Assembly (NCBI GenBank): GCA_965227835.1
Contig: OZ245768.1
Span: 510,001-542,000 of the forward strand
Source: Candidatus Saccharimonadota bacterium
GTDB lineage: Bacteria; Patescibacteriota; Gracilibacteria; BD1-5; UBA6164
Direction: 5' to 3'
DNA length: 32,000 bases
A model generated the notes under the pieces. The model had not been told where the DNA came from. It worked only from the letters and a program-made list of their open reading frames with translations, and did no database searches. A program made the translations under genes and the position numbers. This document shows positions 6,228 to 29,625 of the stretch, piece after piece (within the stretch, counting starts at the first letter, position 1; every line of letters starts with the position of its first letter).

Positions 6228-6261
6228 AATCTATTGCAATTAACTACCCTATTTTCTATCT

Positions 6262-6356
6262 GTTATACTCCCCCCTCTCCTCCAAAAGGAGAGGGGTTAG
6301 GGGGTGAGGGTTTACTTGTATTAGAGTGGAGCATCGCTCAAGCTAGAGTGAGGGCT
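6262..6356. other. GC-rich structured island (hairpin plus short direct repeats) in an AT-rich intergenic region
   Basis: CCCCTCTCC-TCCAAAA-GGAGAGGGG is a 9-bp G/C stem (6272-6296). It is followed by GGGGGTGAGGG, a small GAGC-ATC-GCTC hairpin, and duplicated TAGAGTG(A/G)G (6322 and 6344). There is no T-tract after the main stem. Confidence 0.5.
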
Positions 6357-6426
6357 ATAATGTTATGCTAAAGATAGCTAAATTCAAAAATTGTGATAAA
6401 AAACTAAAAAATAAATTTAAAGTTTT

Positions 6427-7773: not shown

Positions 7774-7921
7774 TTCCAACAGATGGCTTTAGCCATTTGA
7801 TGATTAAGGTTTTCAACAGATTACCTTAGCCATTTGATGATTAAGGTTTTCAACAGATTACCTTAGCCATTTGATGATTAAGATTTTCAACAGATGGCTT
7901 TAGTCATTTGAATATTATGAC
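7774..7921. repeat. tandem direct repeat, 4 copies of 37 bp
   Basis: The unit is TTTCAACAGATTACCTTAGCCATTTGATGATTAAGGT. Copies start at 7774, 7811, 7848 and 7885. Outer copies 1 and 4 carry the palindromic core ATGGCT-TT-AGCCAT (AGTCAT in copy 4). Inner copies 2 and 3 have ATTACC-TT-AGCCAT. The array lies between the secreted-protein gene and map. Confidence 0.9.
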
Positions 7922-8938: not shown

Positions 8939-9862
8939 ATGTTATTTACAAAAGCACATATAAATTTCTTAAACTACCTAGAGGTAATTAAAAATAAATC
9001 ACAAAAAACTATTGAGCAATACGATAGGCATTTAAATAAATTTACTGGTTTCTTGGAAGATTCAAATATAGATAGTTATAAATTTGTAGTAGAAAAAATA
9101 GATTTAAATCTAGCAGACTCTTTTAGAGAGTATTTATATAAGTCCTCTGAAAAAAAAATAAATATAAAAACGGCAAATGCTTATATGATAACACTTAGAT
9201 CATTTTTAAAATACTTAGAAAAAAAATGATATAAAAGTTTATCAGCTACTTCTATAGATTTGATAAAAGCAGAACCAAGGCAGGTAGAATTTCTTACAAG
9301 AGATGAGCTAGAAAGGCTTTTTGAAACTCCAGACAAAGACAGTTTGATATGAAGTAGAGATATAGCAATAATGGAGATGATATATTCTACATGACTTAGA
9401 ATATCTGAACTAACAAGTTTGAATATTAGAGATATAGATTTAGAAAGAAAGGAATTTGCCATTAGAGGAAAATGAAGAAAAGTAAGAGTAGTTTATATGA
9501 CCTCAAAATCTCAAATACTTGTAAAACACTACCTAGAAAAAAGAAGAGATCATCTATCTCCTCTTTTTATAAGACACAATATTGATATGAATAATATAGA
9601 TGTACTAGAAGACGAAAAAGTAAGACTATCTAGATTTTTTATAACCAGTATGATAAAAAACTATTGAATAAAAGCAGGTATACTAAAAGATATTTCAGCT
9701 CATACTTTGAGACATTCTTTTGCAACAACCCTCCTTGAATCTGGAGCTGATCTAAGATCAATACAAGAAATGCTTTGACATTCAAGTATTTCAACAACTC
9801 AAGTTTATACTCATGTAACCAATAAAAAACTCAAAGAAATACACGAAAAATTTATGAGATAA
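8939..9862 (+). CDS. XerC/XerD-family tyrosine recombinase (307 aa)
   Basis: An N-terminal SAM-like core-binding region ([24 protein letters not shown]) is followed by a catalytic domain: [29 protein letters not shown] and [39 protein letters not shown]. Confidence 0.88.
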
Positions 9863-13087: not shown

Positions 13088-13160
13088 TTTTAATATATAA
13101 ATTATATTTTATATGAGTTAAATTATATATAATTTTACTTTTTCTTTACAAAAACCTAAA

Positions 13161-13189
13161 AAAACCTAAAATTTTTTAGGTTTTCTTTT
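13161..13189 (+). terminator. rho-independent terminator after ppk2
   Basis: AACCTAAAA-TT-TTTTAGGTT hairpin followed by TTCTTTT. It is preceded by a duplicated AAAAACCTAAA. Confidence 0.6.
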
Positions 13190-13212: not shown

Positions 13213-13737
13213 ATGAAACTTATAGTTTGACTTTGAAATCCAAGTAAGAAATATGAAAAAACTAGGCACAATCTTTGATTTATGTTCCTAGATTTTTTTG
13301 CTTTGAAAAACAGTTTTCCCAATTTCAAAAAAGAAGATAAATACAAATGAGAAATTTCTCAGTGAAATTTTATGTGAGAAAAAACAATTCTGCTAAAACC
13401 TCAAACTTATATGAATTTAAGTTGAGAAGCTATATATAAGATAAAAAATTTCTATAAAATAGACCTAGATGACATAATTGTTATTTTTGATGATTTTAGT
13501 ATGAATTTTTGAAAAATAAGGTTTAGAGATAAATGAAGTTCTTGATGACATAACTGAATAAAAAATATAATTTCATATTTTGGAAATAGTTTTAAAAGAA
13601 TAAAAATATGAATTTGATTTAATGATTTTTACAGTGTAGATGACTGGGTTTTATCAAAATTTGAAGATAAAGATTTAGAAGAATTAGAAAAAAATGTTTT
13701 TTTAGAAACCATAAATATTTTGAAAGACAAGATTTAA
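13213..13737 (+). CDS. pth: peptidyl-tRNA hydrolase (174 aa)
   Basis: [23 protein letters not shown] (TGA at 13228 and 13234 are the Gly of VGLGNP). Further motifs: [40 protein letters not shown] and RIKIGIG. Confidence 0.92.
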
Positions 13738-13760: not shown

Positions 13761-14762
13761 TTAATACATATATTTCTTGTTTTCTTCATGCTGTCTATTC
13801 GTCTCTGAATAATAGATTTTTCATGTTTTTACATTATGAAGATAATACCAAAAAGAAGTTTTTTTATCATTTAGTGTAGCATTTATTGTTATACTGCTAG
13901 GATTAGATATAGGAGTTTTAGGTAAACCAATCATAGTTCTAGTATTATAATCAGATTTTTCTTGAATATATTTTGACACTACCAGTTTACACTCTTGGCT
14001 AGTAAGTTTATGAGGATAACAAACTGTAATATCTGCCCCTATACTCCATCAGCTTTGTAATCTTTTTTTTAATATACCAGCAACCGTACTTTTTTCTTTA
14101 TTATTTTTTTCTTCTTTTTCTACTATAGAAGCCAAATTAACCACATCATATATAGTTTGGTTTGATAAGTTTTCAGGTTTTAATATTTTCTTGTATGCTT
14201 TATTTTCAAAAGTATCTAATTGTTTTATAACCAGCTCATTTATTTTTAATGGTGTTTTTAGTATATATGTATCTGGATATAAATATCATTCCAAACTTAT
14301 AAGCTCTAAATTTAAAAAATCATAAAACTCTTTCAATGCTTTTATTTTTTCAGGATTTTGAACATAGTTTATATAATCATCTTTTTCTATAAGTTTTTTT
14401 TGATACAGATAATCATCTATATCATATATGTTCCATCATTCTATTATGGTAAGCTCTGTTTGTTTTTCTGATATTGGTTTCTCCAAGCTATCTAATATTT
14501 GTTTTATATCAAAAGACTTTTTCATTTCAAATTTTCAAGCTAGGAGGATAAAATCTTTTTTATTGTTTTTGATATATTTCTTTAAAAAATAATGATTTAA
14601 GTCCAGCTTTGAAGCTAAATCCTTTATGTTTTCTCATTTTTGTATATGAATTATTTTATTTTCTTTTATTAATTCTTTTTCACCAAATTTTTTATAAGAA
14701 TAATTGGTATAAACAATTGTTATTATTATTATAATAGCAATATATTTTATAATATTTTTCAT
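13761..14762 (-). CDS. mltG: endolytic murein transglycosylase MltG/YceG (333 aa)
   Basis: N-terminal TM segment KYIAIIIIITIVY. Further motifs: EGYLYPDTY, LASIVEKEE, VAGILKKRLQSGWSIGADITVCY, YNTRTMIGLPKTPISNPS and FWYYLHN. Its stop lies 23 nt from the convergent pth stop. Confidence 0.85.
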
Positions 14763-14925
14763 TTTGTATCTATTTTTTATGACTTAAAAATCTACCATTT
14801 ATTTTTTTCAACCAATTATGTATTAAATAAAAAAATTGCAATAAAAATTAGCAAAAAAGAATTATTTTCCTTTTAAATGAATTTTTTAAGATTTATTTAG
14901 GATTAAATATATATTATTTTCATAC

Positions 14926-16623
14926 CTAACTAGACTGCCTTCAATTTGGTAACATAGATAAAAGTGTTTGTTGCTGTTCCAATGTAGGTATACCTAAGGC
15001 TAGTCTATCACTATCACTAAAATCATCAGCATGTACATTTCTAAGTCATCTTACAGGATCTTTTGATGTAATAAAATTAGAATTATTTATATTATATCTT
15101 TGAGACAAGAAATCTGCTAGTACTCTTCATCAAATTCTTTGAGCTTCGTTTAATTCTTCAACTCAATTTTCATAAGTACCTCTCCCATCTCATCTCAATG
15201 CCATTTCTATAGCTATAGTTTCACGATTCATATTCCTTGGTAGACTCTTTTGTTTTAAATATGATTGTCATAAAGCTCAATAACCTAAGTCTGCATCAAA
15301 AAATTGAAATATCATACCATTCCTACCTACAAGAAATGCGAAATCTCAACTTTGCTTTCACATATGTATTGCTGATTCTGTTATCTTGAGGTCACCTGCT
15401 TTTCAATATATACCTTCATCAAATCAAGTTCAATGAAAAGCTAAAAAATTTTTTGAAAACCTAGGACTACCATCTGGATTTAAAACTCTGTTTGATCTAG
15501 GGTTTGAAAATTCTTTAGTATCTGTAATAAAATAAATTATCCTTCTTCACTGATCATCAAATAATCTTTGTTCTTGCATATATTTTATAGCCTCTCTATG
15601 AGTGCATTTTATTCTTACCAAGGAGTCTGATAAAATTTCAGGATCTTCAAATGTAGCTAGTGTTTCCCTGCTTTTTTGCTCTACATTATAAATTTTATTT
15701 TCTCATTTCCATATAAGGGCTCTTTTATTACTAATTCTGTCTCACAAAACTACTCTCCAATCTCAATCTTTATATGCTACTTGCATATTTTGTCATCTAG
15801 AGTTTTCCAGTCTAAAAGTAAGATTTTGATATGTATTTGGATCTATAAAATCTCTCAAAGCAGGTTTATTGTCGGTTAATTCTAAAATAGATGATTGTTT
15901 AACATCTGGATTTTGAAAAAGGTCTCAGATATCTATATTTGTATATGATAATAAACTTTCAAATACATCACTATTATTTAAATTATTACCCATATTTGAA
16001 AAAATATTATACTGAAATAAATCTTCTCAAGGATTATTATTTCTAGGTAAATTTTGTATATCATCACTTGCTGTAGTTTTTCAAACATTTATATTTGGTA
16101 TACCTTCTTCTGTGATTAAATCATAATCAATAGTTTCTTGTGGTAAATCAGCATTATCAGCATTTTTATCTTGTGTTTCTTCTTGAATTGGTTCTATTTC
16201 AGGTATTTTTATTATCTGACCAACTTTTATAAAATCAGGATTTTCTATATTGTTCAATTCTGCTATTTCTTTGATACTAGTTCAATGAGCTTTTGCTATT
16301 TTCCAAAGACTATCTCATGGTTTTATCTCATATATTTTAGTTTTTTCTCAAAGTATAAACTCTTTTAAAGATTCGCTTGAGTCAATATCAAAATAAGATA
16401 GTAATTCTTGAGGTATTGAATCAAAAACATCTTTCCATTCTTGATCTGTTATCCTATTTTCATCAAGTATATCTTCGTTTAAAATTAATTGTTTTAAACT
16501 ATCTCTTAGTTCACTAGTTTTTAAATCAACATTTTCAGTTCATTTTGAAGATAACTCTTGTTTTGCTCTATCTACAGAAGAGTCTATTTTTTGATCTACT
16601 TGTATTTTAAAATTTTCAGACAT
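14926..16623 (-). CDS. LysM-domain peptidoglycan hydrolase, probable amidase_2-type C-terminal domain (565 aa)
   Basis: The LysM domain is clear: YEIKPGDSLWKIAKAHGTSIKEIAELNNIENPDFIKVGQIIKIP. The C-terminal half has FLAFHGTGF, FAFLVGRNGMIFQFFD and RETIAIEMALRG, which resemble N-acetylmuramoyl-L-alanine amidase/PGRP motifs. There is no N-terminal signal peptide (MSENFKIQVDQKIDSS...). The ATG at 16623 is 2 nt after the upstream stop. Confidence 0.65.
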
Positions 16624-16625
16624 TT

Positions 16626-16766
16626 TTAATTTTTAAAAGATAATTGTTCTTCTAGATTTTCCAGAATTTCCCTATCCTTTTTTTTATTTTTTATTTCCTT
16701 TATGTTATGTATTTGTTTCATAACTATTTGTAGTAATTTTAATTCTTGAACTTTACTCGTATTCAT
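16626..16766 (-). CDS. small hypothetical protein (46 aa)
   Basis: MNTSKVQELKLLQIVMKQIHNIKEIKNKKKDREILENLEEQLSFKN. It sits tightly between the neighbouring genes (19 nt and 2 nt gaps). It is too short for independent support. Confidence 0.4.
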   Translation of the reverse strand: MNTSKVQELKLLQIVMKQIHNIKEIKNKKKDREILENLEEQLSFKN

Positions 16767-16785
16767 AGTTTTATATTAAAAAGTA

Positions 16786-18621
16786 TTAATCATTCTTCTC
16801 TTCACTGTATCTATCTATATTTCACATTATCACACCTTTTGGATCCATTCATAGTTTTTGTCTTAAAAACATTTGTGCTTCTCAATATTCTAGTTTTTCT
16901 CAATTCCCGTCTAAAAATGTAGGCATTCAACCAAATCATATAGAGTCTATACTTATAAATCAGTCTTTTTCACTAGTAAATAATATATTTATCAATTGAG
17001 CAAAATTTTTCTTATTTTCTAAATCATTTTTTCATGATCAAAATGCACTGAATCAGAAAGATCAATTAGCTAAATCTATGTCTTCTTGAAGTCCAAACAA
17101 TCATTTTTCTCTATTTACTCTGTCTATTAATCATTTCCAAGTTTCTGATGGTAAAATATCAAAATGTATTGAGTTTAAAAATTTTAGTGTTTCTTTAGTT
17201 TGTCTATCATCCTCTTCATATTCTCTAACAGTTTCATCAATTATCTGCTGAGTTTCCCTATTTTGCCATTCTAAAATTTCTTGGTATTTACCTTCTTGTT
17301 TTTGGTATTCTTTTTGTATTTTTGATTTTATATCATCTATATTTGACATGTCTTCAAGTCATAATTCCATATATTTATCTGGATTTTCTTGTCTTAATTT
17401 TAATTTAATGTCATCTAAATCTTCTCATAAAATTACAGATTCTTGTATGTATTCTAGAAATTTTCATAAAGCTAATTTTTCTTGATTTATGTTTTCTAAA
17501 TTTTGGTTAGCTCTTTCCTCTATCTGTTCAATTTGCGATATTTTAGAATGATTTTCTAAAGGGTTTCACAATGTAAAATCACTTCAACTTAAGGATATTT
17601 CTCTAGAATTTTCAGTTGCTTTTACTTGAAATCAATCAGCAGTATCTGCAATTACTCATTCAGAGTTTATTTCAATATTTGATAAATCTGAAACTCAAAT
17701 AACTAATGAAGATCTAGTTATCTTTGACTTACTAATTATTAGTTTTGTTTCTAATCTTACCGAAAAAGGTATAAAACTTGGATATATTTTTGTAATTTCT
17801 TTAACTGTATTTGTAAATTGAGATAGTTTATTTGTACCATTTTCTCTGTCATATTCTTCTAAAAGCTGAAATATAAGATCTTCATTTCTAGATATTTCAA
17901 AACCTATTTCTTCTAAACTACTTTTTTGATCTTTTAGCAATTCTAATAATTTTCATAATCTTGGGTCATCTAATACAGATAAATTTTCACCTAATTCTAA
18001 GAGAAGAGAGGGTAATTTTATTTCTTTTTCTTCATTTGAATTATCGCTTGCTTCTAAGCTATCTTCATTTAATATATTTTCATCTCTCTGTAATACAATT
18101 GAAGAATTAATAGTAGAAACTTCATTTATTAATTCTTCTACTATTTTATTTTCTCAAGTATTTTGTTGTTTAAAATAAGATATTTTACAACTAGAAATTA
18201 TTCAATAAAACTTAGCTTTTGAGTTTTCTAAATTTTGAATTTTTTTAGTTTTCATAAAACCACCCCCTTCTGATGATTTTAATTCTTCTAATTCTTTTTG
18301 CATTTCTTCAGTAAATATATCCTCTTGACTAAATTCATTTCACTGAATTTCTAGAAGTGCTTTAAGTAGATCAAAACCACCTTTTTCTTTTAATTTAGAT
18401 ATTTCGTCATTGCTTAAAATACTCATAATATCTCTTAAATCTTCTTCTGAATCTTGAGTCAAAAAACAAATCTCATCTATTTTTTCTAGAATAGAGTTAA
18501 TATTTAAAGAATTTCTAAGTTCTTCTTGAGATATATTTATTTCATCAATATCTAATTCTGATTTACTTATCTCTCAAGAATTTTGTTGTAATTCATAGTT
18601 TGAGCCAAAAATCTCACTCAT
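16786..18621 (-). CDS. large acidic hypothetical protein (611 aa)
   Basis: Continuous under table 25, and the track ORFs 17131-17349 and 17695-17940 are in the same frame. It is Glu/Asp/Asn-rich with no TM segment, no signal peptide and no recognised motif. Confidence 0.7.
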
Positions 18622-18663
18622 ATTTTTAAATATTTAATTATAAATAATTATTAAATAACCATA

Positions 18664-19806
18664 TTATTCTCAAGAAGATTCTTTTATTTCTTCAAGAGCT
18701 TTATTAATCTTTTCAATTGAATCAATTAATTCTTGTAATTTTATTCAATGCTCTGTTGAAGCATTCAAATCAGCCTCTATTTCTATTCACTCTTCTTGTA
18801 ATTGTTTTAACTCTAATTGCAATTCTGCTAATTTAGCTTCTAATTTTCTTTTTCTTTCTCTTGTTTTAGATAAAATTTCTTCTTGTATTTCTTCAGCAAT
18901 ATCTAAATACTTAGTTTCATAGTTTCTTTTTTTATTTGATAAATTAACATATATTGTTGATATGTCTTCATTTAACATAGAATCTATTTCTGAGTCTGTA
19001 GCATCAGTTCTATTTTCTCAAGTTAAAAAATTCCAAAGTTTTAGTACTTCCTCATTTGGATATACTCAATCTGGATACTTTTCTGTAAAAGCTAATATTC
19101 TATCAAGTCTTTCCTTATCTTCTGGTGTAAATCTTTCTTCTACAGGTATTCTATCTATTATAGTCTGATTATTTTCAACTAATGAACTTCATTCAGCTTT
19201 ATTAATAAAAATAGAAGAAATATTAAAATTGGGGTTATCTGATGATTCAGTTAATGGTTTTCTAATATTTTCTAATAATTTTGCTAACGAATAAGATTCT
19301 AATGAGCTTATCAAAGCTTCTGGAGCTCATTGTAATTTAAATAAATCTAATCTAAATTGTTTAATTATAGCTAATGATAAGGCCATAGATTGATAATGTT
19401 TTTTTCATTTAAGTTGAGTTAATTCTATATTTTGTGTTAGGTTTAAATTTTCAGCTGATGAAAGTTCATCTAGTCTATTTTGATTTTCTGAAGAAAAAGA
19501 TAAATAACCAGATTCTAAAAGATCTACTAATATTTCTTTAGTATTTGAATCTGTTATTCGTTGTAATTCACCAGAATCAATTGTAGACAAAATAGATTCC
19601 AAATCTTTATCTCAAATATTAAAAGAATCATTATTTGTAGTTAAAAAAGTTTGTAGTATTTGGCTTATACACTGTACTTTTAGTGCCTCACTAGAATATT
19701 CTGGTAAATCATTTAAATTACAGTCTAAATTATCAGATGGCATTCCAGTTTCATTATTTATATTGGCAATTTCTGCTCCACCAGAATTAGGGCTCCCTGT
19801 TAACAT
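18664..19806 (-). CDS. acidic coiled-coil hypothetical protein (380 aa)
   Basis: Track ORFs 19612-19806, 19405-19602 and 18787-18978 join into one frame through in-frame TGA (for example ..TQLKGKKHYQSMALSLAI..). The C-terminus is a heptad-like coiled coil (KLEAKLAELQLELKQLQEEG). An internal start at 19386 is possible. Confidence 0.65.
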
Positions 19807-19841
19807 AAATTTATTTTTAAAATATAAGATATTTAATAATA

Positions 19842-19853
19842 ATATTTTGGTAA
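19842..19853 (-). promoter_or_regulatory. TTACCAAAATAT motif overlapping a weak promoter (TTTACC-N17-TATCTT) of the 19806 operon
   Basis: The minus strand reads TTACCAAAATAT 36-47 nt upstream of ATG 19806. The same 12-mer forms the inverted repeat at 25651-25690. Confidence 0.4.
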
Positions 19854-20014
19854 ATAATCTTTTTATGACTTTACAATATTATTTCATATTTTAAGAATAT
19901 CATATATTCTTTTTTATTTCAAATTTGGGAGCTATTTTTTTAAAATAAGATTAAATAGAGGATAAAATAAAAAAGTAGATAAGGAATAAAAGTAAAATTT
20001 AAACAAAAAATCAA

Positions 20015-20145
20015 GCAAGAGTTTAAGTATAAATAAGGGAGCAAGCAAGGGGTTTAGGCAAAATGCAAGAGTTTAGGATAGAATGCAATGGATCGAGGCA
20101 AAATACAGTAATTCAAGATAAAATGCAAGGGGTCAATACCCCTTG
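20015..20145. repeat. degenerate tandem repeat, 20-nt period, ending in a GC-rich hairpin
   Basis: Units are phased exactly at 20045, 20065, 20085, 20105 and 20125 (GCAAGGGGTTTAGGCAAAAT, GCAAGAGTTTAGGATAGAAT, GCAATGGATCGAGGCAAAAT, ACAGTAATTCAAGATAAAAT, GCAAGGGGTCAATACCCCTTG). One further unit is at 20015. Confidence 0.8.
20126..20145 (-). terminator. GC-rich hairpin CAAGGGGT-CAAT-ACCCCTTG (possible minus-strand terminator)
   Basis: Perfect 8-bp stem. On the minus strand it is followed by CATTTTATCTT, which is only moderately T-rich. Confidence 0.35.
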
Positions 20146-20267
20146 TCTATAAGAGATAAGTAAAAGAATATTTTGTAGTAACCCAACTTGTGAATTAATT
20201 TATAAAATAAAATTTAGGGACCAAAATTAACATTTTGCAGAAAAATTAATCTTTTTATTTTTAGTAG

Positions 20268-20378
20268 GCAGAGAGTTTTAGCCTTTTACAAATCCAAAAT
20301 TCTTATCTTTACATTCAAAAGAGAGCTTTAGCTCTTTGCAAATTTCTATGTAACGCAGAGCTTCAGCTTTTTGTAAAT
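20268..20378. repeat. three dispersed copies of a roughly 25-nt unit
   Basis: The copies are GCAGAGAGTTTTAGCCTTTTACAAAT (20268), AAAGAGAGCTTTAGCTCTTTGCAAAT (20318) and CGCAGAGCTTCAGCTTTTTGTAAAT (20354). Spacing is irregular. The middle copy holds an AGAGC-TTTA-GCTCT mini-hairpin. Confidence 0.7.
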
Positions 20379-20439
20379 TAGTTTAACATAAAAAAATCAT
20401 ATCTTAATTAAAAAAATTAAATTGTTAAAATTTAGACTT

Positions 20440-20468
20440 AAAAAAAGACAAGGGGTTTTAACCCCTTG
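20440..20468 (-). terminator. rho-independent terminator (minus strand), second copy of the GC-rich hairpin
   Basis: CAAGGGGTT-TT-AACCCCTTG (20449-20468) is a 9-bp stem. On the minus strand it is followed by TCTTTTTTT. It lies about 185 nt downstream of the permease stop. Confidence 0.6.
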
Positions 20469-20590
20469 AATTACTAGATTATTAGTACCCTTGAATTAAT
20501 AGATTATTAGTACCTTTGAATTAGTAAATTATTAATACTGTTGCATTATTGTATTTTTAATACTTTGAAAAGTATTAATACATAACCTCT
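20466..20590. repeat. degenerate tandem repeat, 25-nt period, starting at the second hairpin
   Basis: The units are TTGAATTACTAGATTATTAGTACCC (20466), TTGAATTAATAGATTATTAGTACCT (20491), TTGAATTAGTAAATTATTAATACTG (20516) and TTGCATTATTGTATTTTTAATACTT (20541), then a decayed copy. The region includes the perfect palindrome TTAATACTTT-GA-AAAGTATTAA (20557-20578). Confidence 0.8.
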
Positions 20591-20651
20591 TTAAAATTTT
20601 GAATCATTTAATTATAAAACCCTAAAAATTTATATATACATTCTAATTAAT

Positions 20652-22172
20652 TTATAGACTATTTAAATACATAAGATAAACAAAAAAACTAGCAAAAAAA
20701 ACTTGTATAATCATAGAAGGAAGACCTACCTTTAAGTATTGCATAAAAGATAAATAAATTTTATTTTTAGCTAAAACTCAAGCAGCAACTAAGTTAGCAC
20801 TAGCTCAAATTAAAGTTCAATTTCATCAAAAACAAGCTCAAAGAGCCAAAGCCCACCATAAAAAAGAAGCATCAAATCAAGCTCATCAATAATGAGCTAT
20901 CAAATTAGCAACAACAGGCAACATAACAGCAGTAAATGGTATATTATCAAGAAGTGCTGAGAATATAGCTGAAACCCAAAGTATTACAAGAGCACATAAA
21001 AGCAAATTTTCTCAAAAATTAAGTTTTATCAAATTAGCAACTAAATCTAGGATTCAGGTATTTTCCAAAGCTCATACTATCATAAATAAAAATACGAAGA
21101 AAGCTAAAACCAACCATTCCACATCTTTGGAAAAAGAATTATGTATAGCCTCTTCCATAACTTCTTTATTTTTTCAAAACTTCCTCCTCATAAGCCTATC
21201 TCTACAAAACATCAAAAAAGCAGCTCACATCAAGGCAGGAACGGTAGCAGGCATATGTAAACTTGAATGTAATAAAAAGAAGATTATAACAAAAACTAAA
21301 CTTAAACCAGAAAAAAATAAAAGTTTTTTATGTTTTATTTTGTATTCATTTCTCATTTTGGATATGAGACTATCCACATCTTTTATCTCCAGAGCATTTT
21401 TAAGATTCTTATTAAAAACCAAATACATATTTATACACAAGATTAAACTTATAAATAAGACAGGTAAACCCATATTTCTCAAAAAATCATTAAATGAAAG
21501 CCCAGCAAAACTTCAAATCATTATATTTGGTGGATCTCAAATAAGTGTAGCAGCTCCTCAAAGGTTAGAAGCAATTATCATAGGTATTACAAAACTTATA
21601 GGATTAATTTTAAATATATTTGCTATTTTTATAGCTATGGGGGTTATAAGTATTATAGTTGTAACATTATCCAAAAAGGCAGAAAGAACTCATGTAGTTA
21701 TTATAAAGAGGAAAAAAAGCTTGAATATATTTCATCTAGATATTTCAAATAGTTTGAAAGCTAACCATTCAAAAACATTTGTTTGAGCTAAGACTCAAAC
21801 TATTATCATCATGGATAAAAGAAGTCATATAACTTCTCAATCTATACTTCTAAAAGCATCTTCTAGTGTAAGAATTTTGAACTCTGGTACTAAATTTCAA
21901 AATGTATATGTAAAGAAAATAAGAACACTTGCTATAAGAAATACAACCAAAGTTCTTTGTATTTTTTCACTAGCGACAAGTGTTATAGTAAGAAACATAA
22001 CTAAAGTAAGCAAAAGTCCTATCATAGGATTATCAACATAGGAAGAAACCATTTCTTGACCTCAAGAGTAAGCAATAGTTTGATTTATGAAAGAAAATAA
22101 GAAATAAAAAAAGAATATAATTTTTGAAAAATATCCTATTTTTTTTAGAAGTTTGAATAACCCATGTTCCAT
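20652..22172 (-). CDS. ArsB/NhaD-superfamily anion/ion permease (506 aa)
   Basis: A polytopic membrane protein with the duplicated signature FLDNVTTIILITPI..ASNLGGAATLIGDPPNIMI and LLDNIPFTAVMLP..LGACFGGNGTLIGASANLV. The frame was verified codon by codon from 20930 to the TAA at 20652-20654. Track ORF 21225-21482 is in frame. Confidence 0.82.
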
Positions 22173-28016: not shown

Positions 28017-28128
28017 AATAAAAATTTAAAATATAAAATAAAATTGTTTTCTAAAATATTAACCTCTTCATAGTTAGGGAGGAATATTAGAAGTTAAAAG
28101 AGTATTTTTCATGACTAAAAAAATTAAA

Positions 28129-29625
28129 TTATAAAAATTTTTCAAAATAAACATTTTCTATTTGTTTTTGTTGTAATGCTTCACTTGTTTGCTCAACTAG
28201 TTTTGGATTTCCACAAATATATACTTCATCATTTTTTCATATATTTATTTTCTCAACATCTACTCTTCCATATTTATGTCCCTTTATTTCTTCTCAAGAT
28301 AAATAAGTAAATACTTGTAAATTTGGGATATTTTTTAATACATCTAAATAAAATAAATCTTTCTCATATCGTACTCAAAAATGAAGTTCTTTTTTTGTTT
28401 TCCAAGTATTAATTATCATATTATATATTGGAGATAATCATGTTCCAGTAGCTATAAAAATCTTCTTTCTACTTGTATTTTTAAGAATAAAGTCTCAGTA
28501 TGGTCACAAAACTTTTATTTGATCTCATAGTTTTGATTTTCTAATTTCAGCTGATCAACTTCCCTCTTCAGTTAATTTTATAAGAAAAGTAAGTGTATTA
28601 TCTATATATTTAGCAACCGAATAACTTCTTATGATTTTATTTTTTCACTTTCTGAAAATAAAATTACAAAATTGTCATGATTTTATTTCTAAATCTCTTT
28701 TACATAAAAATACAAGTTCTACTACATCATCTGTTAAATATTTCTTTGATTCCAAAATAAATTCTAGTTCATGATTTTCTTTTATCTCTGGATTATAATG
28801 TCAGTCCAATGGAATAAAATCCTTTTTACTCACTCAACAAACAGGACATCTCCAATTATTTGGAATATCTTCAAATTTTGTTCATGGAGCTAATCAACCA
28901 TCTTCATCTCATAACTCTTCATCATAGATATATCAACATGGGAGACATAAGAATTTTCTATATTCTCATTTTCCTAATCACTTACCTCATTTTCTTTCAT
29001 ATCTTTCATCAAACCAAGTATATGATCTCAGTAATATAAGAATAACTCATGGATATAAATAAATTCCTTTCCATCATCATATAAAATAAATATGAAGTAA
29101 TACAATTATAAACAATGGATATACTCCTTTTTGAAGATATTTCCAAAATTTTGCTCACATGATTCTTTGAGAAAGATCATTTGAGGTAAATAATAAAGTT
29201 AACATTACTATAAAACCAATAATTCATATCCAAAAAGCATAAAAGTTCATTCAAAATATACTTTCTCACCAAGCATTAAAAATACTATTTATAAGAAAAT
29301 CTCAATATCACATTTTTTCTATATAATATTTTTCCCATAAATTACTTACTCTTTCTTCAAAATGTAATACATGCATCAAAGAGAAAGCTCCTGCAAGTAT
29401 TCAAATAGGTCTTCTATAGTTTATTAACTTATTAGAATATTTTTTTAGTTTTTTAATTTTCAAAAGTAATTTAGAAAATGGTGTTACTAGTAATACAAAA
29501 ATAAGATAATAATAACTGAGGAATCAAAATATTTGCACATCATTTGATAATATTTGCTTTGCTAGAAAATATAGTGGTATTACTGGTATTAAAGATATCA
29601 TTAGCCTAAAAATAGTTTTTTTCAT
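28129..29625 (-). CDS. fusion protein: ferric-reductase/YedZ-like TM domain + rubredoxin + FNR-like FAD/NAD(P)H reductase (498 aa)
   Basis: The N-terminal polytopic part has His in TM helices (AGAFSLMHVLHF, FIIVLLHIYF). The middle is a textbook rubredoxin: [46 protein letters not shown]. The C-terminal part has RSYSVA (RxYS FAD motif), LGPYGDF and IFIATGTGLSPI (NAD(P)H motif). Confidence 0.8.

What the first reader, a model, noticed from the sequence alone, without database searches (positions are those of the whole stretch)
19807..20651. 845-bp repeat-laden noncoding region with two near-identical GC-rich hairpins bracketing a roughly 300-nt core
In a window where most intergenic gaps are under 250 bp, this spacer is exceptional and highly organised.
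- A 20-nt-period degenerate array (units phased at 20045, 20065, 20085, 20105 and 20125) ends in the hairpin CAAGGGGT-CAAT-ACCCCTTG (20126-20145).
- A core of about 300 nt contains three copies of a roughly 25-nt unit (AGAGAGYTTYAGCYYTTTRCAAAT-like).
- A second hairpin, CAAGGGGTT-TT-AACCCCTTG (20449-20468), leads into a 25-nt-period array (20466, 20491, 20516 and 20541) that decays with distance and contains a perfect 22-bp palindrome.
The two arrays face each other. AGTAATTCAAG (20107-20117) is the reverse complement of CTTGAATTACT (20465-20475). GCAAGGGGT recurs at 20045 and 20125, with a near-copy ACAAGGGGT at 20448. Read on the minus strand, the right hairpin is a good intrinsic terminator (followed by TCTTTTTTT) and the left one a weaker terminator. 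A TTAACA-N16-TAAGAT promoter-like sequence lies just inside the right hairpin. This suggests an independent minus-strand noncoding transcript of about 300 nt. Alternatives are a MITE-like insertion bounded by inverted repeats or a multi-site regulatory region for the downstream operon.
Basis: seen in the sequence. Interest (0 to 1): 0.65.

Follow-up and report, generated by a model that had tools for sequence, protein, structure and literature searches.

The report
Duplicated terminator hairpins with repeat arrays
An unusually long gap between two genes of a recoded (TGA = glycine) candidate-phylum bacterium holds two copies of one transcription-terminator hairpin, arranged as an inverted repeat and flanked by decaying tandem repeats built from the hairpin arms; it is real and oddly organised, but nothing tested shows it to be a new RNA gene or a mobile element.

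Summary
The described architecture is real and non-random. It comprises two 8-bp GC-rich hairpins (20126-20145, 20449-20468), a 25-nt array (lag-25 z = 8.9), a 20/40-nt array (z = 6-7) and three 23-nt core units, all confined to the window's largest gap (845 bp; next largest 362). The host uses genetic code 25 (Gracilibacteria/Absconditabacteria). The gap lies between the stop codon of a CitMHS/ArsB-type permease and the start codon of an orphan/LysM-amidase/MltG operon, all on the minus strand.

Both hairpins look like minus-strand intrinsic terminators, as stable as the window's other terminators. They are related as an inverted duplication that includes part of an array unit.

The proposed ~300-nt RNA is not supported:
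- its promoter scores below coding-sequence background;
- the core fold is unremarkable (z = -1.6);
- Rfam finds nothing;
- there is no ORF and no gene remnant.

Nothing mobile is nearby, and no unit recurs elsewhere in the 32 kb. No relative has a homologous spacer, so conservation could not be tested.

Best reading (about 50%): a lineage-specific terminator/insulator region enlarged by local duplication and replication slippage, followed by the operon's own promoter (19922-19894). A DNA-binding-protein array remains possible. Interest is low to moderate.

The parts
20652..22172 (-). CitMHS/ArsB/NhaD-type permease gene (506 aa under code 25); its stop codon forms the right border of the spacer
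   Evidence: Pfam CitMHS 1.4e-75. Homologs of 506-507 aa in Ca. Gracilibacteria at 60-66% identity. 15 of its 24 TGA codons align with invariant Gly in standard-code homologs.
20557..20578 (.). AT-only near-palindrome TTAATACTTT-GA-AAAGTATTAA at the decayed outer end of the right array
   Evidence: 10-bp arms with a 2-nt centre; not a perfect palindrome.
20463..20587 (-). Right array: 25-nt tandem units in the permease 3' untranslated region. On the minus strand each unit ends in TTCAAGGG, which is the 5' arm of hairpin T1. Identity decays with distance from the hairpin.
   Evidence: TRF period 25, score 111-117. Lag-25 z = 8.9. Unit identities fall from 24/25 to 21/25 to 17-18/25 moving away from the hairpin. 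Not found elsewhere in the window or in viral contigs.
20440..20468 (-). T1: hairpin CAAGGGGU-UAAA-ACCCCUUG followed by UCUUUUUUU. Most likely the intrinsic terminator of the permease gene, 184 nt after its stop codon.
   Evidence: Terminator scan. Free energy -12.5 kcal/mol, z = -3.3. It is the first GC-containing hairpin downstream of the stop codon.
20446..20498 (.). Right arm of the extended inverted repeat (hairpin plus about 1.2 array units)
   Evidence: Local alignment of the two hairpin regions scores 44 inverted against 22 direct. Also repeat finder I1, 27 nt at 89%.
20146..20448 (.). 303-bp AT-rich core (22.8% GC) with no ORF, no Rfam match, no gene remnant and no overall periodicity
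20272..20379 (.). Three copies of the AGAGYTTYAGCYYTTTRYAAAT unit (20272-20294, 20322-20344, 20357-20379). Only the middle one is a clean palindrome (AGAGCT-TT-AGCTCT).
   Evidence: the repeat finder D2 at 78-87% identity. Pattern search expects 0 by chance. The hairpins are not significant as RNA.
20401..20428 (-).
   Evidence: 9 of 12 consensus match. Absent from the top six PWM sites and below coding background. The apparent copy at 28116-28140 is only AT-rich sequence overlapping a stop codon.
20116..20145 (-). T2: hairpin CAAGGGGU-AUUG-ACCCCUUG followed by CAUUUUAUCU. A weaker minus-strand terminator that is an inverted copy of T1.
   Evidence: Terminator scan. Free energy -13.2 kcal/mol, z = -3.3.
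20108..20148 (.). Left arm of the extended inverted repeat: TAATTCAAG..ATAA..AATGCAAGGGGTCAATACCCCTTGTCT
   Evidence: alignment. Exact 11-mer AGTAATTCAAG shared in inverted orientation.
20045..20125 (.). Left array: 20-nt units (40-nt double unit) that each start with GCAAG(G/A)G, the outer arm of T2. A weaker extension reaches about 20015. GC content is 36%.
   Evidence: Lag 20 z = 6.2 and lag 40 z = 7.1. Unit identities 10-16 of 20. Half-site map. It adds no RNA structure of its own (z = -0.6).
19894..19922 (-). Best promoter-like site in the gap: TTGAAA-17 nt-(TG)-TATTCT, 88 nt upstream of the ATG. Probable promoter of the downstream operon.
   Evidence: PWM score 9.0, the top minus-strand site in the gap. 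Also listed with an extended -10 TG.
18664..19806 (-). 380-aa orphan protein gene; its ATG forms the left border of the spacer. First gene of a minus-strand run that continues with a 611-aa orphan, a 565-aa LysM + amidase_2 protein and MltG/YceG.
   Evidence: No homolog among 5.8 billion proteins other than itself. No PHROG hit.

Best explanation
The spacer is a lineage-specific composite of ordinary transcription signals that has been enlarged by local duplication. Reading along the minus strand, which is the coding strand of both neighbouring genes:

1. The permease mRNA runs through a 25-nt minisatellite and stops at a strong intrinsic terminator, T1 (8-bp GC-rich stem followed by U7).
2. 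About 300 nt of unconstrained-looking AT-rich DNA follows.
3. Next comes T2, an inverted partial copy of 'array unit + T1'. It still folds as a stable hairpin followed by a U-rich tract on the minus strand, so it serves as a back-up terminator.
4. A second minisatellite (20/40-nt period) built from T2's outer arm follows.
5. Last come the operon's own sigma-70-type promoter (19922-19894) and an ~80-nt leader.

Functionally, the pair of terminators insulates the downstream operon, which encodes cell-wall hydrolases, from read-through out of the permease gene. The arrays are by-products of replication slippage or unequal exchange seeded at the hairpins.

Shown: the anatomy, the terminator-like form and stability, the inverted-duplication relationship, the decay gradient, and the promoter ranking. 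Inferred: actual termination, the insulation role, and the slippage origin.
For: - Both hairpins satisfy terminator criteria on the minus strand only. They are nearly as stable as the window's other gene-end terminators (other terminators).
- T1 is the first credible terminator after the permease stop codon. Permease homologs in relatives have a plain terminator a few nt after the stop codon (L093 9526-9554), so a terminator is expected here.
- The two hairpin regions align as an inverted duplication that extends into an array unit (score 44 against 22 for direct orientation).
- The right array shows a monotonic decay away from the hairpin (24/25, 21/25, 17-18/25), as expected for successive tandem duplication.
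- Its 25-bp period is not a multiple of the DNA helical repeat, which argues against face-of-helix cooperative protein binding.
- Tandem repeats are common in this genome's gaps. 11 of the 17 TRF rows scoring 45 or more lie in the ~16% of the window that is intergenic. They include a 37-nt x 3.6 hairpin-bearing array (7777-7911) and a hairpin with a tandemly duplicated arm (13150-13184).
- Tandem or clustered copies of this same kind of hairpin occur in unrelated organisms (L007, L117, L162, L203).
- The best promoter in the gap lies operon-proximal, downstream of T2.
- There is no ORF, no Rfam family, no gene remnant, no phage or plasmid match, and no mobile-element gene nearby.
Against: - The strict mirror symmetry of the oriented half-sites (five '+' copies, then a +/- pair, the core, a +/- pair, then three '-' copies) is more orderly than random slippage needs to be.
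- The left array shows no decay gradient, and its 36% GC is high for noncoding DNA here (around the 95th percentile of gap windows). That hints at either constraint or youth.
- The 20-bp period of the left array is close to two helical turns.
- T2's U-tract is mediocre (CAUUUUAU).
- Relatives' terminators do not carry arm repeats, so this is not a general habit of the lineage.
- The 300-nt core and its three units are left without a role.
- No expression or population data were available.
Confidence: 0.5

Rival explanations
1. The region is a DNA-binding-protein array. An unknown protein recognises the asymmetric half-site (T/G)CAAGGGG. It binds as a dimer to the two palindromes and spreads cooperatively over the oppositely oriented half-site arrays. 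The array could act as an operator or silencer for the operon, a centromere-like site, or a polar replication-fork barrier near the terminus.
For: - Six of the eight exact CAAGGG copies in the window lie here, with strict orientation: all '+' on the left, all '-' on the right, and head-to-head pairs at both hairpins.
- On RNA the two arrays would read differently (CAAGGG against CCCUUG), but on double-stranded DNA they are the same site. The symmetry therefore makes sense only at the DNA level.
- The left array's 20-bp period is about two helical turns, and its GC content is elevated.
- GC skew and gene orientation switch at about 13.7 kb, which suggests the window spans the replication terminus. 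From my own knowledge, closely spaced inverted Ter sites are known in the B. subtilis terC region and in plasmid R6K.
Against: - No candidate binding-protein gene (Rep, ParB/ParR, RTP/Tus-like, HTH regulator) lies next to the spacer.
- The better-conserved right array has a 25-bp period that is out of helical phase.
- Apart from the half-site, the unit sequences of the two arrays are unrelated.
- The decay gradient looks like neutral divergence.
- DnaA boxes are not enriched (4 found against 3.3 expected), and no dif-like site was found.
- The half-site is absent from other promoters in the window.
Confidence: 0.15
2. The core is an independent minus-strand small RNA gene of about 275-300 nt, transcribed from a promoter just inside T1 and ended by T2.
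For: A stable hairpin plus U-rich tail (T2) lies about 275 nt downstream of a 9/12 promoter-like site. The core holds three related 23-nt units, which could be reiterated binding motifs. No ORF competes for the space.
Against: - The promoter site ranks below six other sites in the gap and below coding-sequence background. Real promoters in this genome are near-consensus.
- The minus-strand fold is unremarkable (z = -1.57). The plus strand actually folds better (z = -2.78).
- The core units are not significant hairpins.
- There is no Rfam match.
- No homolog of the core was found in any fetched locus, phage, plasmid or viral contig.
Confidence: 0.12
3. The region is a non-autonomous mobile element (MITE or foldback-like), or the remnant of one. 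The inverted repeats at 20108-20148 and 20446-20498 are its terminal repeats, and the 300-bp core is its body.
For: A true inverted relationship exists between the two ends and extends beyond the palindromic stems. The size (about 350-390 bp) and the AT-rich noncoding body fit a MITE. In another organism a small element with its own terminal repeats appears to have inserted into the loop of a similar hairpin (L117), which shows such hairpins can be insertion targets.
Against: - No target-site duplication flanks the repeats (sequence).
- No second copy of any part occurs in the other 31 kb.
- No transposase or recombinase is adjacent.
- Similarity is highest at the inner ends of the arrays and decays outward, which is the opposite of transposon ends with subterminal binding sites.
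- Pattern scans recovered only generic hairpins from unrelated phyla.
Confidence: 0.1
4. The region is an invertible promoter switch (inverton). A site-specific recombinase flips the 297-bp segment between the inverted repeats, switching the downstream operon on and off.
For: 27-53-nt inverted repeats flank a ~300-bp segment directly upstream of an operon for orphan, possibly surface- or cell-wall-active proteins. A tyrosine recombinase gene lies in the window (8939-9862).
Against: - The recombinase is a XerC/D-type gene 10 kb away.
- Read as 11-6-11 sites, the central spacers of the two palindromes differ (TCAATA against TTAAAA, 4 of 6). From my own knowledge, tyrosine recombinases would tolerate that poorly.
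- No good promoter lies inside the segment.
- A transcript leaving the segment toward the operon would meet T2 and its fixed U-tract.
- The best promoter lies outside the segment.
Confidence: 0.05

Closest known systems
Rho-independent (intrinsic) terminators, including tandem or back-up terminators at gene ends
   Same: GC-rich 8-bp stem, 4-nt loop and a U-tract on the coding strand of the upstream gene. Stability is similar to other gene-end hairpins in the same window.
   Different: Two copies share one stem sequence, are related as an inverted duplication 297 nt apart, and are flanked by tandem arrays made from single hairpin arms. T1 lies 184 nt after the stop codon, compared with 3-53 nt for other genes here.
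Clustered palindromic intergenic repeats: REP/BIME of enterobacteria and BOX elements of Streptococcus pneumoniae (from my own knowledge)
   Same: Hairpin-forming palindromic units lie in alternating orientation at the 3' ends of genes, combined with variable numbers of tandem sub-units (boxB). They can stabilise mRNA or terminate transcription.
   Different: Those families are dispersed in tens to hundreds of copies per genome. Here no second copy exists in 32 kb, and genome-wide dispersal could not be tested. There is no sequence similarity.
Intergenic minisatellites / VNTRs (for example mycobacterial MIRUs and Wolbachia VNTR loci; from my own knowledge)
   Same: Tandem units of 20-40 nt confined to a gap between co-oriented genes, with divergence increasing along the array. 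The same window has several other such arrays.
   Different: Here the two arrays are mirror images and are anchored on two copies of one terminator hairpin.
Iteron or centromere-like repeat arrays (plasmid R1 parC, pSK41 parC, plasmid origins; from my own knowledge)
   Same: Two blocks of about 5 short repeats of about 20 bp flank a central region that contains a promoter-like sequence. The half-sites are oriented.
   Different: No Rep, ParR or ParM gene is nearby, the locus is chromosomal, the 25-bp array is out of helical phase, and the units of the two blocks are unrelated except for 6-8 bp.
MITEs with terminator- or promoter-bearing inverted repeats (for example Neisseria Correia elements; from my own knowledge)
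   Same: Inverted terminal repeats bracket a short noncoding body in an intergenic site. The repeats can pair in RNA.
   Different: No target-site duplication and no additional copies were seen.
Type III toxin-antitoxin loci (ToxI repeat array, then terminator, then toxN; from my own knowledge)
   Same: A tandem repeat array lies directly upstream of an intrinsic terminator on the same strand.
   Different: The units are 25 nt rather than 34-45 nt. No ToxN-like ORF follows; the next 300 nt hold no ORF. The array lies in the 3' untranslated region of a permease gene.

Membership tests
Intrinsic terminator | GC-rich stem-loop (at least 5 bp, loop 3-8 nt) followed within 0-2 nt by a U-rich tract, on the coding strand downstream of a gene | tested here: met
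   T1: 8 pairs, 5 GC, loop 4, tail UCUUUUUUU. T2: 8 pairs, 5 GC, loop 4, tail CAUUUUAUCU. Both on the minus strand only. Free energies -12.5 and -13.2 kcal/mol.
Intrinsic terminator | Transcripts actually end at the site | not testable with these tools
   No RNA-seq or Term-seq data are available for this organism.
Small RNA gene | A promoter of the quality used by the organism at the 5' end | tested here: not met
   TTAACA-N16-TAAGAT is not among the top six sites in the gap. Bona fide promoters in the window score 10.6, and the coding background maxima are 5.9-11.1.
Small RNA gene | Membership of a described RNA family, or a fold more stable than shuffled sequence | tested here: not met
   Rfam finds 0 at gathering thresholds, and the best match at E <= 10 is RefA9 at 29 bits against a threshold of 49. 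Core minus-strand fold z = -1.57.
Small RNA gene | Conservation or covariation in relatives | not testable with these tools
   The nearest genomes are only 60-66% identical in the adjacent permease and have different neighbouring genes. The adjacent orphan gene has no homolog.
MITE | Terminal inverted repeats | tested here: met
   Inverted alignment scores 44 against 22 for direct orientation. I1 is 27 nt at 89%.
MITE | Target-site duplication directly outside the repeats | tested here: not met
   The flanks of either possible boundary share no direct repeat (sequence).
MITE | Multiple dispersed copies in the genome | tested here: inconclusive
   None in the remaining 31 kb. The source genome is absent from the searchable collections.
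Inverton (invertible promoter) | Inverted repeats flanking a promoter-bearing segment, with a dedicated invertase | tested here: not met
   Inverted repeats are present, but no good internal promoter exists. The only recombinase is a XerC/D-type gene 10 kb away.
Inverton (invertible promoter) | Both orientations present in a population | not testable with these tools
   No read data are available.
Iteron origin / partition site | Repeat array adjacent to a gene for its binding protein (Rep, ParR/ParB), or DnaA boxes plus an AT-rich unwinding element | tested here: not met
   No such gene within 10 kb on either side. DnaA boxes are at background level (4 against 3.3 expected).
Type III toxin-antitoxin | Repeat array, then terminator, then a ToxN-family endoribonuclease gene | tested here: not met
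   No ORF of 18 aa or more lies in the 300 nt after T1. The next gene is a 380-aa orphan with no Pfam or PHROG match.
CRISPR array | Repeats separated by unique spacers of similar length; cas genes | tested here: not met
   The units abut without spacers, and there are no cas genes.

The most novel reading that the evidence does not exclude
The mirror-image arrays of the asymmetric site (T/G)CAAGGGG, each capped by a head-to-head palindrome, are the binding platform of an unidentified DNA-binding protein in a candidate-phyla-radiation bacterium. One possibility is a polar replication-fork trap or a centromere-like site. It would lie about 6 kb from the point where GC skew and gene orientation reverse, which is the putative terminus. 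No Tus/RTP-type termination system has been described for this group of organisms.
Probability: 0.1. Interest if true: 0.7.

Novelty: new member of a known kind. Interest (0 to 1): 0.3.

Why it matters
If the best explanation holds, this region is an instructive but ordinary case. It shows how terminator hairpins in a very AT-rich, recoded genome can seed inverted and tandem duplications and inflate one spacer to about four times the usual size. It also shows that such regions can mimic an RNA gene or a mobile element to a reader working from sequence alone.

It would matter more if the oriented half-site arrays turned out to be protein-binding sites. Nothing is known about chromosome segregation, replication termination or operon silencing in Gracilibacteria/Absconditabacteria, and this locus would give a defined DNA target from which to fish out the protein.

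The downstream operon (two orphan acidic proteins, a LysM-amidase with phage-endolysin relatives, and MltG) may be relevant to the epibiotic or predatory lifestyle of these bacteria. How it is insulated and switched on is therefore worth knowing.

Tried and rejected
- Known RNA family: Rfam at gathering thresholds on the whole window, and at E <= 10 on the spacer, gave only noise. No tRNA or tmRNA.
- Hidden protein gene or pseudogene: no ORF of 18 aa or more under code 25 except a 29-aa frame running across the left array. Translated comparison with relatives and with the rest of the window found nothing.
- Phage or plasmid origin: blastn of the spacer and tblastn of the 611-aa protein gave no match. 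PHROGs matched only the LysM domain. Viral-contig scans gave one chance hit and zero hits.
- Recovering the source genome or sister strains: the exact-protein look-ups failed. The 380-aa protein is unique to one 1.49-Mb contig.
- Genome and metagenome hairpin scans: 92 and more than 120 loci were returned, none related beyond the ~27-nt hairpin. The stem CAAGGGGT/ACCCCTTG is a generic terminator stem, not a signature.
- Synteny-based comparison: permease homologs (L093-L098) and LysM-amidase homologs (L100-L104) have different neighbours and short, plain spacers.
- Replication origin: DnaA boxes are at background, and the flanking genes are co-oriented rather than divergent.
- dif site: no match to the consensus.
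- Third terminator at 20335-20322, and the core units as RNA hairpins: not significant.
- Shared promoter module with 28116-28140: this is AT-rich sequence over a stop codon.
- Elevated GC as evidence of constraint: the spacer as a whole (22.5%) is close to the other gaps (19.2%). Only the left array stands out, at about the 95th percentile.
- Shared hairpin family between the core unit and the 37-nt array (GCTTTAGC): two copies against 0.59 expected, and 11% of shuffles do as well.
- General 'hairpin plus arm repeat' habit in the lineage: not seen in relatives.
Full report
**Setting.** The window is 24.8% GC, and under the standard bacterial code it breaks into short ORFs. Reading TGA as a sense codon restores long genes for ClpB, methionine aminopeptidase, a XerC/D-type recombinase, PPK2, peptidyl-tRNA hydrolase, MltG/YceG, a CitMHS/ArsB-type permease and an AcrB/CusA-type pump. 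TGA means glycine. In the permease, 15 of 24 TGA codons align with invariant Gly in twelve standard-code homologs, and Trp appears once in 288 aligned cells. The organism therefore uses code 25, so it belongs to Gracilibacteria/Absconditabacteria. The nearest permease homologs are annotated Candidatus Gracilibacteria. With this gene map, the region 19807-20651 is a true intergenic spacer. It lies between the stop codon of the minus-strand permease (20652-22172) and the ATG of a minus-strand 380-aa orphan gene (18664-19806). That gene heads a co-oriented run that continues with a 611-aa orphan, a 565-aa LysM + amidase_2 protein and MltG. At 845 bp the spacer is the largest of 25 gaps; the next are 362, 276 and 273 bp.

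**Checking the observation.** All the described elements are present.
- The two hairpins are exact, and the repeat finder reports them as a 27-nt, 89% inverted repeat with 297 nt between the arms.
- The right array is a clear 25-nt tandem repeat (TRF score up to 117; lag-25 autocorrelation 0.73 against 0.32, z = 8.9).
- The left array is weaker but significant (lag 20 z = 6.2, lag 40 z = 7.1), so its real unit is a 40-nt double unit.
- The three core units are 78-87% identical over 23 nt, with no match expected by chance.
- None of the three unit types occurs anywhere else in the window.
- Two details needed correction. The '22-bp palindrome' has a non-palindromic GA centre, and the promoter-like site is weak.

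**Anatomy.** A useful way to see the region is as a map of the asymmetric half-site CAAGGG(G). Six of the eight exact copies in 32 kb are here. With one mismatch allowed, 11 of the window's 92 copies lie in 591 bp against 1.7 expected. All copies in the left array point one way and all copies in the right array point the other way. Each hairpin is a head-to-head pair.

On the minus strand, the right-array units end in UUCAAGGG, which is the 5' arm of hairpin T1. The left-array units carry CCCUUGC followed by AUUUU, which is the 3' arm of T2 plus its tail.

The two hairpin regions are related as an inverted repeat, not a direct one. Local alignment scores 44 inverted against 22 direct. The inverted match runs outward into a gapped copy of the right-array unit (TAATTCAAG..ATAA..AAT-CAAGGGGT..ACCCCTTGTCT). 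The right array decays steadily away from the hairpin (24/25, 21/25, 17-18/25 identities). The left array shows no such gradient.

**Transcription signals.** On the minus strand both hairpins meet terminator criteria, and on the plus strand neither does (6 terminator-like calls against 0.5 in shuffles). T1 (-12.5 kcal/mol, then UCUUUUUUU) and T2 (-13.2 kcal/mol, then CAUUUUAUCU) are comparable with the hairpins that end other genes in the window (-14.7 to -17.5 kcal/mol). T1 is the first credible terminator after the permease stop codon. In relatives, the permease gene is followed within a few nucleotides by a plain terminator.

The genome uses near-consensus sigma-70 promoters. TTGACA-N15-17-TATAAT/TATATT occurs in five other gaps and scores 10.6. 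Inside the spacer, the best minus-strand site is TTGAAA-17-(TG)-TATTCT at 19922-19894, 88 nt before the ATG (score 9.0). It lies downstream of T2 and is the natural promoter for the operon.

**Is the core an RNA gene?**
- The 278-nt candidate transcript folds no better than shuffles on the minus strand (z = -1.57), and it folds slightly better on the plus strand (z = -2.78).
- The three core units are not significant hairpins.
- A fold of the whole 591 nt is significant (z = -3.15), but only because the two look-alike hairpin regions pair with each other.
- Rfam gives nothing, and there is no ORF or gene remnant.
- The positive evidence for an sRNA therefore reduces to the presence of T2.

**Is it mobile or foreign?** There is no phage or plasmid similarity and no PHROG hit beyond the LysM domain. 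No transposase, invertase, Rep or Par gene is nearby; the only recombinase is a XerC/D-type gene 10 kb away. No target-site duplication is visible, and no second copy exists in the window.

The genome-wide copy number could not be determined. The source contig (1.49 Mb) cannot be fetched and is not in the searchable genome or metagenome collections. Those scans returned 92 and more than 120 loci from many phyla that share only the hairpin. This is expected, because any given 8-bp terminator stem will recur by chance among the very many terminators in such collections.

The scans did show that tandem or clustered copies of one terminator-type hairpin are not rare. Examples are three 41-nt copies in L007, two blocks of 35-nt copies in L117, mixed copies in L162 and an 82-nt period in L203.

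**Comparative evidence.** None could be obtained.
- The 380-aa protein has no homolog other than itself among 5.8 billion proteins.
- The closest permease homologs are 60-66% identical, and their contigs have different downstream genes and 80-115-bp spacers.
- The LysM-amidase has three homologs. One is in a 22% GC recoded relative that shares only that gene, one is in a phage, and one is in an unrelated MAG.

**Interpretation.** The most economical account is that this is the permease terminator region, enlarged by local duplication. One inverted duplication produced T2 from 'array unit + T1'. Tandem duplications anchored on the outer arm of each hairpin produced the two minisatellites.

Three observations support this. 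Tandem repeats are strongly concentrated in this genome's gaps (11 of 17 TRF rows with score 45 or more). Two other gaps show hairpin-linked duplications: a 37-nt x 3.6 array at 7777-7911, and a hairpin with a duplicated arm at 13150-13184. The right array also has a decay gradient and a period out of helical phase.

Two terminators in series would insulate an operon that encodes cell-wall hydrolases from read-through; that role is inferred. I put this reading at about 0.5.

The main unexplained feature is the strict mirror symmetry of the half-sites, together with the GC-rich, near-helically-phased left array. Those features make sense at the DNA level, not the RNA level, and they keep a protein-binding array alive as a rival (about 0.15). 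The most interesting version of that rival is a polar fork barrier or centromere-like site, because GC skew and gene orientation both reverse at about 13.7 kb, which suggests the window spans the terminus. Against it, there is no candidate binding-protein gene nearby, and no dif-like site was found. An sRNA (about 0.12), a MITE remnant (about 0.1) and an inverton (about 0.05) are not excluded, but each failed at least one testable criterion.

**Verdict.** This is a real, well-organised and locally unique repeat structure made of ordinary parts. It is not a recognisable RNA family, not demonstrably mobile, and not conserved in any accessible relative. Interest is low to moderate. It should be revisited if the complete genome, reads or transcriptome of the source organism become available.

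Noticed in passing
window 1-32000: The window uses genetic code 25 (TGA = Gly). 15 of the permease's 24 TGA codons align with invariant Gly in standard-code homologs, so the organism belongs to Gracilibacteria/Absconditabacteria. Any table-11 or table-4 annotation of this sequence would be wrong.
   Followed up: yes
window 7777-7911 (+): A 37-nt tandem array of 3.6 copies (TRF score 214) lies in the gap between a secreted-protein gene and map. As RNA it folds very strongly (z = -8.0). Units 1 and 4 carry the hairpin GATGGC-TTTA-GCCATC, while units 2 and 3 have an altered 5' arm. It is not called a terminator by the strict scan, and its function is unknown.
   Followed up: partly
window 13150-13184 (+): A hairpin AAAACCTAAAA/TTTTAGGTTTT after the PPK2 gene has its 5' arm tandemly duplicated (AAAAACCTAA x 2.2). 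This is a second local example of an arm duplication next to a gene-end hairpin (fold z = -2.85; arm copies P = 0.03).
   Followed up: partly
window 6228-6426 (+): This 199-bp gap is 35% GC, against 19% for the other gaps pooled. It holds a 10-bp GC hairpin (CCCCTCTCCT..AGGAGAGGGG) and a G-rich tail, and its RNA fold gives z = -2.97. It lies upstream of a 434-aa secreted-protein gene and has no Rfam match. It could be a cis-regulatory RNA or a small RNA.
   Followed up: partly
window about 13700 (pth at 13213-13737 on the + strand, mltG at 13761-14762 on the - strand): GC skew and gene orientation both change sign here (cumulative skew maximum), which suggests the replication terminus lies in the window. 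A XerC/D-type recombinase gene is at 8939-9862. No dif-like site was found with the usual consensus.
   Followed up: partly
window 13761-19806 (-): A co-oriented gene run encodes a 380-aa and a 611-aa acidic orphan protein (no homologs, no Pfam or PHROG hits), a 565-aa LysM + amidase_2 protein and MltG/YceG. One LysM-amidase homolog (P0124) lies in a phage contig with terminase, RecT and ParB genes (L102/L103). The run may be a cell-wall remodelling or attack module.
   Followed up: partly
L117 13230-13781; also L007 60-190, L162 5680-5880, L203 3500-3800: Unrelated metagenomic organisms carry long tandem arrays of the hairpin (A)ACAAGGGGTTTAAACCCCTTGT(CT) with periods of 35, 41, about 27 and 82 nt. 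In L117 the array appears to be split by a ~230-bp insertion with its own ~11-bp inverted ends and an 8-bp duplication (GTTTAAAC) inside a hairpin loop.
   Followed up: no
L001, L009, L010, L027, L050, L064, L067, L074, L076, L078, L079, L088 (Candidatus Coatesbacteria MAG CSMAG_1439): One Coatesbacteria genome carries the same 20-nt hairpin-plus-T pattern on at least a dozen contigs, often with a second similar hairpin next to it. This looks like a dispersed REP-like hairpin family in that genome.
   Followed up: no
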